From Eledone cirrhosa (lineage: Eukaryota), in contig OZ024745.1 in NCBI GenBank assembly GCA_964016885.1, positions 109,616,001 to 109,680,000 on the forward strand: DNA of 64,000 bases. The letters run 5' to 3'. Shown here piece by piece: positions 331 to 58,495 of this stretch. Within the stretch, counting starts at the first letter, position 1. Each line of letters begins with the position of its first letter. The notes beneath the pieces were generated by a model, which saw only the letters and a program-made list of their open reading frames with translations, was not told where the DNA came from and did no database searches. The translations under genes and the position numbers were made by a program.

Positions 331-835
331 TAGGTTTGAAGGTTCACCACTGGATAGAGCTGGTCAATTCCGTATGGTCAATCTTGATGTAATAATATGG
401 AGAGTACTCAACGTAAAGCAGCTCAACAGTCTTCGTTTGTGTAGTTGGTGGTGCGAGTATGGAGCTAAATATTATAATAAAATAACAGGAGGCTGGACTT
501 GTGTAAATCCTTGAAAGGTTTATTATACTATGATCATTTCAATGACCGGGTTCCGTATGAATCCGGTGACATCATCAGGTATTCGAAATATAATAAATGA
601 ATGTAACAGATAAAATCCATGGGGCTGAAAATCATAGATCTCTGGACGACCGACCATCTAGCATCTTCCACTTTAGCCGGTCGCCCTCAAGTGCTGGCCA
701 TTCGGTCAACTAAAGGCTATCTTGTGAGGGGGCGAAAGCTTATAATGTGCTACTAACCTCCCGGTCAAAGAGAAAAAAAGACAGAAAGAAAGAAGAAAAC
801 TCAGCATTAATGTCATGCTACAATCAGGCTAGGAA
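331..835 (-). mobile_element. Non-coding HHR-bearing module (PLE pseudo-LTR-like) between (TA)n tracts
   Basis: Bounded by TA repeats; 331-537 is homologous to 49990-50195; contains the HHR at 525-582. Confidence 0.6.
525..582 (-). ncRNA. Type I hammerhead ribozyme, palindromic helix III (AUGAUCAU)
   Basis: Minus strand: atac-CTGATGA-tgtcaccggattcatacggaacccggtcatt-GAAA-tgatca-TA-gtat. Helix I atac/gtat; helix II accgg(a.c)ttc/gaa(c)ccggt with an imperfect base; AUA cleavage triplet. Confidence 0.7.
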
Positions 836-865
836 TATATATATATATACATACATATATATATA

Positions 866-43619: not shown

Positions 43620-44779
<1,160 letters not shown>

Positions 44780-49482: not shown

Positions 49483-49901
49483 ATTGTTATACTTTGGGAG
49501 GGTCATGTTGCCAATAAGAAACACACGCACCAGTTGATTTCACTTCAATTTATTATAATAAATTTATAAATTTAGGAATTTATAAATTTCCGGTTGGTTG
49601 GTTCCACAACCAGATGATTGTTTATATATTGTCAAAAACACACAAAAACAAGATGGCGTAGGACAGAACAAAGGAGAGGCACAAAAAACAAAGAAAAGAA
49701 TCCCCAATCACTGAAAAGGTCACAGAATGTGTGACGAAAGAACTTTGACAATATATAAACAATCATCTGGTTGTGGAACCAACCAACCAACCGGAAATTT
49801 ATAAATTCCTAAATTTATAAATTTATTATAATAAATTGAAGTGAAAGCAACTGGTGCGTGTGTTTCTTATTGGCAACATGACTCTCCCAAAGTATAACAA
49901 T
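49483..49901. mobile_element. Fold-back element: ~155-bp inverted arms around a spacer containing a degenerate HHR
   Basis: Arms 49483-49636 and 49744-49901; tca-CTGAAAA-g-gtcaca-gaatg-tgtgac-GAAA-gaac-TT-tga at 49708-49748. Confidence 0.75.
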
Positions 49902-49989
49902 ATCGGTTTCAACACACGTTTTCAGATAAAGAATCTTGCTAAACAAATTCAGAAACGAAATATATATATATATATACATATATATATTC

Positions 49990-50253
49990 AGGTTTGAGGT
50001 TCACCACTGGATAGAGCTGGTCAATTCCGTATGGTCAATCTTAATGTAATAATATGGAGAGTACTCAACGTAAAGCAGTTCAACTGTCTTTGTTTTTGTA
50101 GTTGGTGGTGCTAGTACGGAGTTAAATATTATAATGAAATGACAGGAGGCTGGACTTGTGTAAATCCTTGAAAGGTTTATTATACTATGATCATAGTATA
50201 ATAAACCTTTCAAGGATTTACACAAGTCCAGCCTCCTGTCATTTCATTATAAT
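49990..50253. mobile_element. Second copy of the 331-835 module, ending in a perfect 126-bp palindrome
   Basis: 49990-50190 is homologous to 331-533; 50128-50253 is a spacerless palindrome centred at 50190/50191. Confidence 0.85.
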
Positions 50254-50274
50254 TATATATATATATATATATAA

Positions 50275-50464
50275 GGGCGGTGGATTGGCAGTATCGGTAG
50301 AGGGTCGGACAACATGCTTTCCAGCATAGTTATGTCCCTTTATGATCTGAGTTCAAATCCCGCCGAGGTTAACTTTGCCTTTCATCCTTACGGGGTCGAT
50401 AAAATAAAGTACCAGTAATGCACTGGGATAATTGCTGGCCTTGTGCCTAAAGTAGAAACAATTA

Positions 50465-50466
<2 letters not shown>
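50275..50466 (+). mobile_element. SINE family B in (TA)n
   Basis: Family B motifs; attataattatatata on both sides. Confidence 0.85.
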
Positions 50467-51206: not shown

Positions 51207-51240
<34 letters not shown>

Positions 51241-51243
<3 letters not shown>

Positions 51244-53403
51244 GAAGAGAACTGGGAGTTCCTAAAAAATAACTTACTAGAGGCGACGGATGAGGTTTGT
51301 GGCTGGAGTAAGACCTCAAGCAGGAGGAGAGTGACTTGGTGGTGGAACAATAAGGTAGATGAAGCAGTCAAGGCCAAGAGACAGGCATGGAAAGAATGGA
51401 AGAACGGGGGGAGCAGGGTACATTACATAGAGACCAAGAGGGAAGCTAGGCGACAAGTATACTTAGCTAGGAGGGAAGCAGAGGATAGAAAATTCAAGCA
51501 TGTTTTACAACGTGAGGACCAGAAACAGGAGGTATTCAAGATTGCGAGGCAGTGTGTCAGAGATAGTTGTGATGTCATTGGAGAGAAGTGTATCCGGAAT
51601 GATAAAGGTGAGCTTGCCCTCACAAGTGCTGAGAAGAAAGATGCATGGAAGAGTCATTATGATAGATTACTAAATGAGGAGAATGCATGGGAAGAAGAGA
51701 CCCTACCCCACGTAGACCCTATAGAGGGACCAGCAGTACAAGTCAGCGGCAGCGTAGTAAGTAAGGCAATCAGAGATATGAAGATAGGGAAGGCAACCGG
51801 TCCATCGGGTATAGCTGCCGAGATGCTGAAGGCATCTGGGTCTGTAGGTCACACTATAACCACACGTATCGTTAACCAGGTAATACTAGAGGGGGCCATA
51901 CCAAAAGATTGGTGCAGTAGCATCATTGTCAACTGCTACAAAGGTAAAGGCGATGCACTAGATAGAGGAAACTATAGAGGTATAAAGTTGATGGACCAGG
52001 TCATGAAAGTAACAGAAAGAGTTATAGCACAGCTGATTAGGGACCGGGTGAATATAGACGAGATGCAATTTGGGTTTGTTCCAGGGAAAGGCACCACTGA
52101 TGCGCTCTTCCTTGTGAGGCAATTACAGGAAAAGTACCTAGCTAAAAGTAAGCCACTCTACTTGGCATTTGTCGACCTTGAGAAAGCCTTTGACAGAGTT
52201 CCACGTGCAGTAATCTGGTGGGCTCTTAGAAAACTAGGAGTAGATGAATGGCTTGTGAAAGCGGTACAAGCCATGTATAGGGGAGCAGTCAGCAAAGTTA
52301 GGATTGGCAATGAGTATAGCGAGGAATTTAGCGTACGGGTTGGGGTCCACCAGGGCTCTGTTCTTAGCCCTCTCCTGTTCATCATAGTCCTGCAGGCAAT
52401 AACGGAGGAGTTTAAGACCGGATGCCCATGGGAACTCCTGTATGCTGATGACCTCGCACTCATAGCTGAATCTATGGTAGAACTAGAGAATAAATTCCAA
52501 ACCTGGAAGCAGGGACTAGAGAGAAAGGGCCTCAAAGTCAACATGACAAAGACTAAGGTCCTTATAAGTAGACGAGAAAACAGAACCCAGATCCCCTCAG
52601 GGAAATGGCCTTGCTCAGTATGTAGGAAAGGTGTAGGTAGGAACTCCATTCTTTGCCCCAAATGCAAACAATGGGTACACAAGAGATGTAGCGGGATCTC
52701 AGGAAGCTTAATTAAGAATGTAGGATTCACATGCAGCAGCTGTGCTGAAACAGCAAGCAAACAGCCACAGGAAACAAGTACCACCAATCTCTGGGAGGGC
52801 CCTGTAGAAACAGTAGACAGCTTCTGCTACCTAGGTGACCGAATTAGCAACGGAGGTGGGTGCTCAGAAAGTACAATAACTAGGGTAAGAACGGGATGGA
52901 AGAAGTTTAGGGAACTACTACCACTGCTAGCTGCAAAAGGCTTCTCCCTCAGAATGAAAGGCAGACTGTATGATGCGTGTATCCGAACAGCGATGTTGCA
53001 TGGTAGTGAGACCTGGGCGCTGAAGGTGGAAGACTTACGTAGATTAGAGAGAAACGAAGCCTGCATGCTCCGATGGATGTGTAACAGTAATATACGTGAA
53101 CGACAAAGCATAAATGAATTGAGAGAGAGACTGAGCATAAGAGGAATCAAATGCTGCGTGCAGGAGAGGCGGTTACGCTGGTATGGACATGTGATGCGTA
53201 TGAAGGATGACAGCTGCATAAAAAGGTGCAGAGCACTAGAAGTTGATGGAAACCGCGGAGTGGGGAGACCCAAGATGACTTGGGATGAGGTGATAAAAGC
53301 CGACCTTACCCAACTACACCTCTCAAAGTCAATGACACACGACCGTGACTTCTGGCGTCACGCAGTAATACAGGGTACCCGACCTCCCATGGGTACATGC
53401 TGA
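51241..53403 (+). CDS. RTE reverse transcriptase ORF (lacks the N-terminal AP endonuclease; internal PHD-type zinc finger)
   Basis: RT motifs QFGFVPGKGTTDA, LAFVDLEKAFDRVP, GVHQGSVLSPLLF, LLYADDL, GLKVNMTKTK, FCYLG; RTE C-terminal [30 protein letters not shown]. The frame is open from 51241 (the track starts at GTG 51331); no native start. Confidence 0.93.
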
Positions 53404-53701
53404 AGCATATAAACAATATGCCCCCCCCCCCCCCACCGCAAGGTGGTCGTGGAGGTGCCACGGCAAAAAAGCACCCAGCCCACACTGTAAAGTGGACGTG
53501 TAGGCGCCACGAAAAAGCACCCAGCACTCACTGTAAATGAGGTTGGTGTTAGGAAGGGCATCCAGCTGTAGAAATCAAGCCAGATCAGTTCCTGTATGAG
53601 CAAGGCATGGTCAGCCGACCAGACACTGCCCACAACAGGACAACCCGTCTAACCCATGCTAGCGTGGAAGAACGGGCGTAAAACGGTGATGATGATGATG
53701 A

Positions 53702-54982: not shown

Positions 54983-55308
54983 ATCATCATCATCATCATC
55001 ATCATTTTACATCCGCTTTTCCCTGCTTGCAAGGGTGGGACGGGAACTGATTCTGGCTTGATTTCTACACCAACCTCATTTACAGTGAGTGCTGGGTGCT
55101 TTTTTGCCTTGGCGTCTACACGTCCACTTTACAGTGGAATGATATGGACCCCAGTCCCTATCATCTCATTTCTACAGCTGAGTAAACTGGAGCAATGTGA
55201 AATAAAGTGTCTTGCTCAAGGAAACAACACATCACCCGGTCTGAGAATTGAACTCACAGACTTTCGATTGCAAGCCCAATGCTCTAACCACTAAGCCATG
55301 CGCCTCCA
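54983..55308 (-). mobile_element. SINE family A (small internal deletion in the tail)
   Basis: Homologous to 4389-4736. Confidence 0.85.
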
Positions 55309-58390: not shown

Positions 58391-58426
58391 TTTCCTGATG
58401 AAGGACTTCTGTCTGAAACGTCGAAA
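58391..58426 (+). ncRNA. Minimal type I hammerhead ribozyme, GAAACGUC type
   Basis: tttc-CTGATGA-a-ggac-ttct-gtct-GAAA-cg-TC-gaaa; helix III palindrome ACGU; GUC site; typical PLE minimal HHR. Confidence 0.85.
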
Positions 58427-58495
58427 CCTCCTCCATTTTCACCAATCGTGAACATAATATAACTTCTGTGTTTTGTTTGTTCATTTTCAAAGAAG

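What the first reader, a model, noticed from the sequence alone, without database searches (positions are those of the whole stretch)
49990..50253. Perfect 126-bp palindrome that pivots exactly on the ribozyme's helix III
This copy follows 331-533, then reverses at atga|tcat (50190/50191), the centre of the AUGAUCAU helix III of the intact HHR at 525-582. The rest of the ribozyme is replaced by a 63-bp mirror arm with no spacer. Inference: cDNA ending at or near the ribozyme snapped back on the palindrome and self-primed, or two cDNAs annealed through it, so the palindrome may act in integration as well as in catalysis.
Basis: partly seen in the sequence, partly recalled or inferred. Interest (0 to 1): 0.78.

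Follow-up and report, generated by a model that had tools for sequence, protein, structure and literature searches.

The report
Two-armed Penelope insertion, microhomology joint
The perfect hairpin is a real, short insertion of a Penelope-like jumping-gene family whose two mirror-image arms were likely copied separately and joined where 8 self-complementary bases could pair; the same joint recurs in about a dozen copies but is only about 1% of such insertions, so it is an ordinary product rather than a special role of the ribozyme.

Summary
The 126-bp perfect palindrome (50128-50253, centre 50190/50191) is there and pivots on the hammerhead's helix III (ribozyme on the minus strand). It is a two-armed, head-to-head insertion of a non-coding Penelope-like family (5,484 exact anchor matches in this genome). 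The same pivot occurs in 12 loci, made independently, but is 11 of 801 inverted copies; most junctions lie far upstream and keep the whole ribozyme on both arms, with 29 of 50 longer arms ending at a fixed point about 160 nt upstream of the cut site. A microhomology preference fitted on control windows predicts the pivot's local share (0.41 predicted, 11 of 25 seen). cDNA ends do not pile up at the ribozyme. Snap-back is disfavoured: in 20 of 50 copies neither arm contains the other. Best reading: two cDNAs, primed from two fixed start sites on uncleaved RNA, joined by microhomology. The architecture is known; this two-cDNA reading was not found in the papers searched. The scan noted similar fold-back insertions in other genomes. 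Autonomous partner, RNA ends and raw-read support were not obtained.

The parts
49990..50190 (-). Long (tail-bearing) arm: 3' 200 bp of the Penelope-like element, element sense on the minus strand; equals 331-533 of the copy at the window start
   Evidence: 94% to 300-537; family copies
49990..50127 (-). 'Tail': about 135-140 bp present on one arm only
   Evidence: 89 of 114 inverted loci have one arm from <=335 and one from 466-473
50187..50194 (.). Junction ATGATCAT, the 8-bp palindrome of hammerhead helix III; inversion centre 50190/50191
50185..50186 (-). Position of the predicted hammerhead cleavage site (UA^GUAU), 5 nt from the pivot; the catalytic core itself is missing from this copy
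   Evidence: sequence; cleavage not tested
50191..50253 (+). Mirror (tail-less) arm, 63 bp, identical to 50128-50190; outer end at family position 471, the second fixed start
49958..49989 (.). (TA)n target, left flank; no target-site duplication can be read
50254..50273 (.). (TA)n target, right flank, followed by an unrelated SINE-like repeat at about 50274-50466
331..836 (-). Second family copy, 5'-truncated, not inverted, between (TA)n runs; used as coordinate reference
525..582 (-). Hammerhead motif, type I, with palindromic helix III (530-537); activity untested
   Evidence: no Rfam hit
672..700 (-). Dominant 5' end of arms in the family (about 683-692, at a CACT Inr-like motif); likely the RNA 5' end / pLTR boundary
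   Evidence: 29 of 50 longer arms end here; RNA not tested

Best explanation
This is a short head-to-head insertion of a non-coding Penelope-like element into a (TA)n run, with one tail-bearing and one tail-less arm, and it likely arose when two cDNAs, primed on the two cut target strands from the element's two fixed start sites, stopped near helix III and were joined by pairing of their self-complementary 8-base ends. Shown: the structure, the two fixed outer ends (331 and 466-473, one of each per insertion), the scatter of inner ends with a cap near 690, the general excess of microhomology at joints, and that both arms come from the same subfamily. Inferred: that the outer ends are reverse-transcription starts (by analogy with PAc), that the template is uncleaved RNA starting near 692, that one RNA (by strand displacement) or two sister RNAs serve both cDNAs, and that joining is done by the RT or by host microhomology end-joining. 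Helix III is palindromic for ribozyme dimer folding; at the DNA step it would act only as the longest microhomology in reach.
For: One-of-each outer ends: 89 of 114 inverted loci, against 2 tail/tail and 2 tail-less/tail-less (12 other, 9 unresolved). Neither arm contains the other in 20 of 50 (tail-less arm longer by >=15 nt; tail arm longer in 8, within 15 nt in 19, both tailed in 3; among 42 well-mapped 17/7/18). Arms of one locus differ at 0.05 of subfamily-diagnostic columns against 0.42 between loci (31 loci). Microhomology weight fitted on 22 of 27 control junctions (0.64 per base, 0.38-0.84) predicts a helix III share of 0.41 (0.18-0.64); seen 11 of 25 assignable. Two cDNA ends pair through the palindrome at -7.9 kcal/mol, whereas the single strand has no 3'-paired hairpin (-1.0). 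In vitro, PAc cuts and extends both target strands, starts RT at two internal sites that bound the tail, uses uncleaved RNA and is predicted to be a dimer (PMC11167929). A second family next door shows the same layout.
Against: No RNA or biochemical data for this family; no autonomous partner found. The microhomology model is simple and fitted on few junctions; fitted only on the 14 non-pivot junctions of the same window it predicts 0.23 and the observed 0.44 is then in excess (p 0.03), and the other 8-bp palindrome (567-574) has 1 symmetric joint against 11, so a modest extra preference for helix III is not excluded. The tail here (about 135 bp) is longer than the 30-40 bp described. The 50 mapped wide-gap loci are the first 50 listed on one contig, of 772.
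Confidence: 0.65

Rival explanations
1. Snap-back self-priming: one cDNA (or an antisense RNA template, as Arkhipova et al. proposed) folds back at its 3' end and copies itself; the mirror arm is then cut or stops at 466-473.
For: Published interpretation of palindromes at inverted junctions (PMC3846280). Arms always share the subfamily. Some joints use native hairpins (e.g. the 6-bp inverted repeat at about 496-511, 3 identical joints among 50). It can account for this locus alone and for the 8 of 50 copies whose tail arm is longer.
Against: A copy of the tail arm cannot reach further 5' than the tail arm, yet it does in 20 of 50. A no-spacer pivot at helix III offers only a 2-bp stem; no 3'-paired fold is predicted. 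An antisense-template variant is not excluded by these counts.
Confidence: 0.15
2. Helix III has a specific role in integration beyond microhomology: RT stalls in the folded (dimeric) ribozyme, or the palindrome is selected as a joining site.
For: It is the most recurrent exact junction among those counted (11-12 loci; others at most 3-4 in the listings). Excess over the within-window fit (p 0.03). One copy has both arms ending exactly at the cut site. An earlier scan note reports over-use of the cut site in another genome (e1-9822609, not checked).
Against: 11 of 801 (1.4%), about 0.8% if wider-spaced pairs are added (8 further pairs per 12 among the first 100 rows). Near-symmetric joints are about as dense just 3' of the ribozyme (12 of the first 50 of 101 loci, about 24 in all) as at it (29). 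Fisher 11/29 against 7/34 at control palindromes p 0.17. Family B: none of the first 50 of 762 pivots at its helix III. Naiads make the same inverted structures without canonical hammerheads (PMC8557442).
Confidence: 0.1
3. The fold-back arose after insertion, at the DNA level (replication template switch or break repair at the small palindrome of a normal copy).
For: Short palindromes are known to seed fold-back inversions (recalled). Arms are of one subfamily.
Against: It would not stop at the fixed 466-473 boundary and run straight into (TA)n target in all 9 exact-pivot loci, and cannot give copies in which neither arm contains the other.
Confidence: 0.05
4. Assembly or library chimera.
For: The arms of this copy are identical; no read spanning this junction was seen (could not show one).
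Against: 12 loci with the junction in different subfamilies and flanks, 8 with diverged arms; mirror arm ends at the biological boundary rather than continuing into the tail.
Confidence: 0.03

Closest known systems
EN+ Penelope-like element insertions with an adjacent inverted 5'-truncated copy and an optional tail (Arkhipova et al. 2013, PMC3846280; Craig et al. 2021, PMC8557442; passages read)
   Same: Head-to-head inverted copy at the 5' end, tail on one arm only, palindromes at the inverted junction, (TA)n targeting that hides target-site duplications, hammerhead in the terminal repeat.
   Different: Here both arms are stubs, no ORF is linked, the tail is about 135 bp rather than 30-40 bp, and the junction counts argue for two cDNAs rather than the self-priming proposed in 2013.
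PAc (Poseidon-type PLE of the green anole; Frangieh et al. 2024, PMC11167929; main text read)
   Same: Two fixed start points bounding the tail, AT-rich targets, ribozyme left uncleaved in the template; both target strands extended in vitro.
   Different: PAc's ORF starts inside the ribozyme; this family's ribozyme-to-tail region shows no ORF start and no tblastn match to two local PLE proteins. The paper does not analyse inverted junctions.
PLE hammerheads with small palindromic helix III (Cervera and de la Pena 2014, PMC4209133; passages read)
   Same: Type I motif with palindromic helix III that is thought to fold as a dimer.
   Different: Longer, bulged stem II region (31 nt) and a long AU-rich stem I extension; activity untested here.
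L1 twin priming (5' inversions; search listing only; mechanism recalled)
   Same: Both target strands prime cDNA; the two cDNAs are joined with microhomology.
   Different: In L1 the two cDNAs cover non-overlapping parts of the RNA; here they overlap, which gives mirror arms, and both start at fixed sites.
Animal non-LTR retrozymes (bioRxiv 10.64898/2026.07.22.740005; abstract and outline seen)
   Same: Non-coding, hammerhead-bearing, proposed non-autonomous derivatives of PLE terminal repeats.
   Different: Retrozymes are tandem arrays of short monomers; this family is dispersed as single or inverted copies, up to about 1.3 kb.

Membership tests
Penelope-like element (EN+), insertion architecture | Inverted 5'-truncated copy adjoining the 5' end | tested here: met
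   This locus; 801 inverted pairs within 330 nt
Penelope-like element (EN+), insertion architecture | Tail extension on one end only | tested here: met
   89 of 114 loci; about 135 bp, longer than the described 30-40 bp
Penelope-like element (EN+), insertion architecture | Hammerhead motif in the terminal repeat | tested here: met
   Core kept in 102-111 of 115 arms; by motif only, no Rfam hit
Penelope-like element (EN+), insertion architecture | Insertion into microsatellite / AT-rich targets | tested here: met
   (TA)n at the arm ends of the 9 exact-pivot loci and of the full-span copies shown
Penelope-like element (autonomous) | ORF with telomerase-like RT and GIY-YIG endonuclease in the same element | tested here: not met
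   A 1.3-kb copy has no long ORF; 1 of 50 GIY-YIG loci has a family copy nearby, 1.2 kb from the ORF and not in terminal-repeat position. RT+GIY-YIG ORFs exist in the genome, so the family is filed as non-autonomous, partner unknown
Penelope-like element (autonomous) | Partial tandem pLTR-ORF-pLTR | tested here: inconclusive
   The tandem-pattern search did not run; one tandem pair fetched (L110) had no PLE ORF between the copies
Active hammerhead ribozyme | Self-cleavage at UH | not testable with these tools
   No RNA run holds the stretch in the listing; needs an in vitro assay
Non-LTR retrozyme | Tandem arrays of short hammerhead monomers | tested here: not met
   First 100 anchor matches are single or inverted, with one same-strand neighbour 3.1 kb away
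MITE / fold-back DNA transposon moving as a unit | Fixed palindromic unit shared by all copies | tested here: not met
   Junctions differ among copies, and pivot copies belong to different subfamilies with arms matching within each locus

The most novel reading that the evidence does not exclude
Every two-armed Penelope insertion is made by a protein dimer that primes both target strands, one from each fixed start site, on a pair of sister RNAs held together through the palindromic helix III; the ribozyme would then be an RNA-dimerisation signal for integration rather than a cutter, and the perfect pivot marks the events in which both polymerases stalled at that RNA-RNA contact.
Probability: 0.1. 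Interest if true: 0.7.

Novelty: new member of a known kind. Interest (0 to 1): 0.3.

Why it matters
The locus itself is one ordinary product of a known architecture. What is useful is the family: about 800-1,300 inverted insertions with mappable joints in one genome give a natural read-out of how Penelope-like elements build inverted ends, a step that the 2021 and 2024 papers leave open. The strict one-tail, one-tail-less pairing, with either arm longer, favours double priming plus microhomology joining over self-priming and can be tested directly in the existing PAc in vitro system.

Tried and rejected
Rfam: no hammerhead hit. Free folding of 515-600 on the + strand was the wrong strand and gave z about -1.3 to -1.7. 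Reads: no RNA holder listed; laying four runs on 49900-50420 was swamped by other copies and listed no piece across the junction, so it says nothing either way; the locus stays unconfirmed in raw reads. An extrapolation from 3 of 50 copies that a junction at about 687 would outnumber the helix III pivot was wrong: genome-wide it occurs 3 times among 16. The CCATGG control anchor matched one subfamily only, so its count of 12 is partial. Automatic junction mapping against a single reference was noisy at 630-690 because of subfamily divergence; one search used several real copies and is the one cited for arm lengths. Enrichment of arm ends at the cleavage site: not seen (2 of 50 short arms at 528-531; 2 of 23 simple truncations). 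Two templates from different subfamilies within one insertion: not seen (1 of 31 loci above 0.3 diagnostic difference). Autonomous partner: not found in 50 GIY-YIG loci of 150 listed and 10,596 candidates. Propagation of the palindrome as a unit: rejected. PMC9977147 (passages) added nothing on junctions. Supplements of the papers were not opened; PAc Fig. S2 on insertion ends may bear on the start-site analogy.

Full report
Observation. The palindrome is as described: 63-bp arms, no spacer, 50128-50253, centre 50190/50191, and the left part aligns with the copy at 300-537 at 94%. The centre ATGATCAT is helix III of a hammerhead motif that reads on the minus strand of 525-582; the predicted cut (UA^GUAU) falls between 529 and 528, five bases from the pivot. 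Rfam does not recognise the motif; the core letters are kept in 102-111 of 115 arms examined. Cleavage is untested.

The family. The window lies on G000:C5 of a 3.0-Gb genome. A 24-base anchor ending in helix III has 5,484 exact matches. Copies end in (TA)n; the longest followed run about 1.3 kb without a long ORF. RT plus GIY-YIG ORFs exist in the genome, but none of 50 such loci carries this family in terminal-repeat position. I file it as a non-autonomous Penelope-like family with unknown partner.

The exact 30-base pivot occurs in 9 loci. With a 15-base anchor ending at 528 and its mirror, 29 loci have a gap of 0-30 nt, 11 of them the helix III pivot (8 exact, 3 with one mismatch; 12 loci), and 772 loci have a gap of 31-330 nt. 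The pivot is thus 11 of 801 (1.4%); among the first 100 anchor rows I count by eye 12 close pairs and 8 wider ones, which would bring it to about 0.8%. The pivot copies belong to different subfamilies and their two arms share the subfamily letters within each locus, so each was made anew. I mapped the first 50 of the 772 (all on contig C1): the longer arm ends at 672-700 in 29 of 50, at a CACT motif near 692 that I infer to be the RNA 5' end; shorter arms are spread from 528 to about 690. Most inverted copies therefore hold the whole ribozyme on one or both arms.

Is helix III special? Against a null without microhomology preference it is enriched (6.3% expected, 11 of 29 seen, p 7e-7). But other small palindromes of the element also give symmetric joints: TGATATCA 1 of 6 loci at gaps up to 30, CCATGG 3 of 12 (one subfamily), CTCGAG 3 of 16; pooled 7 of 34 against 11 of 29, Fisher p 0.17. 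A weight per base of microhomology fitted on 22 assignable junctions of 27 in two control windows is 0.64 (0.38-0.84) and predicts a helix III share of 0.41 (0.18-0.64); 11 of 25 assignable junctions (4 with insertions dropped) is 0.44. Against this reading: fitted only on the 14 non-pivot junctions of the same window, the prediction is 0.23 and the excess has p 0.03, and the other 8-bp palindrome has one joint only. Near-symmetric joints are about as dense 3' of the ribozyme (12 of the first 50 of 101 loci have gaps up to 30 from an anchor ending at 497), where they recur at short native inverted repeats. Simple 5'-truncated copies joined to (TA)n end evenly across the ribozyme (23 distinct loci in the first 100 rows, read by eye: 2 at 528-531, 1 at 532-537). 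All 45 combinations of arm ends that give the pivot need both arms to reach 529 or beyond, so RNA cut by the ribozyme cannot template it without added bases.

Mechanism. The outer ends are fixed: in 89 of 114 inverted loci one arm starts at the tail end (<=335) and the other at 466-473; 2 are tail/tail, 2 tail-less/tail-less, 12 other, 9 unresolved. In PAc, the two RT start sites bound the tail, both target strands are cut and extended, uncleaved RNA is the main substrate and the protein is predicted to be a dimer (PMC11167929, main text read). Snap-back of one cDNA requires that the tail arm contain the other arm; in 20 of 50 copies the tail-less arm runs at least 15 nt further 5' (tail arm longer in 8, within 15 nt in 19, both tailed in 3). 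The arms of one insertion are of one subfamily (0.05 against 0.42 diagnostic difference, 31 loci whose arms were long enough). Two cDNA ends pair through the palindrome at -7.9 kcal/mol; a single strand ending there has no 3'-paired fold. The simplest reading is double priming: one cDNA from each start site on each target strand, from one RNA by strand displacement (PLE RTs lack RNase H; recalled) or from two sister RNAs, each stopping at random or at the RNA 5' end, then joined by microhomology. This locus is the case in which both stopped at 529-537. All steps after the counts are inference.

Generality. A second family sits next to the finding (49483-49960). It has a hammerhead on the + strand, 762 inverted pairs within 260 nt, none of the first 50 pivoting at its helix III (smallest gap 49), a tail-less arm ending at 49903 in 14 of 15 loci and, in 8 of 15, a longer arm ending at 49638-49647 directly at the joint.

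What is known. Inverted 5'-truncated copies, tails and TA targeting are standard PLE features (PMC8557442, passages and section 15). Palindromes at inverted junctions were noted and read as self-priming in 2013 (PMC3846280, passages). Palindromic helix III is a described feature of PLE hammerheads (PMC4209133, passages). I found no paper that maps inverted joints against helix III or states the double-priming reading, in seven searches of the open-access library; subscription papers, including the early Penelope reviews, are not covered. Earlier scan notes on other genomes (unchecked, seen after my reading was formed) report similar fold-back insertions.

Verdict. Interest 0.3.

Noticed in passing
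window 49483-49960: Second Penelope-like family: 158-bp inverted arms (49483-49636 / 49744-49901, 96%), hammerhead on + at about 49705-49749 (this copy has A at the core G8 position; most listed copies have CUGAAGA), tail to about 49960; 762 inverted pairs in the genome. In this copy the short arm stops at 49744, within 2 nt of the predicted cut; enrichment at that site was not tested.
   Followed up: partly
window 43874-44664 and 52662-53452: 791-bp inverted repeat, 99% complementary, 8 kb apart, overlapping LINE-like ORF fragments and flanking a 731-codon open frame at 51208-53400.
   Followed up: no
window 50274-50466 and at least 28 other places: Abundant 190-bp SINE-like repeat, 70-97% alike; the pivot copy abuts one.
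   Followed up: no
window 55241-55298 (-): Weak Rfam tRNA match (29.6 bits), probably the head of a second SINE family.
   Followed up: no
window 58391-58430 (+): Another hammerhead-like motif (CUGAUGA...GAAAC GUC^) with 3-bp stem I, found by a descriptor scan.
   Followed up: no
L054 (G000:C6:61942227-61942256): Inverted copy in which both arms end exactly at the predicted ribozyme cut site with no microhomology; 1 of 801.
   Followed up: partly
L069, L075, L082: Arms with G at the cleavage position 17 (which should block cutting) still occur in inverted insertions, and a subfamily has a non-palindromic helix III.
   Followed up: no
L215, L216 (G000:C1:83811500-83818500, C1:145869800-145876800): Long open frames (1096 and 938 codons) with RT and C-terminal GIY-YIG-type region and a Cys-rich linker: apparently intact autonomous Penelope-like elements of other families.
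   Followed up: partly
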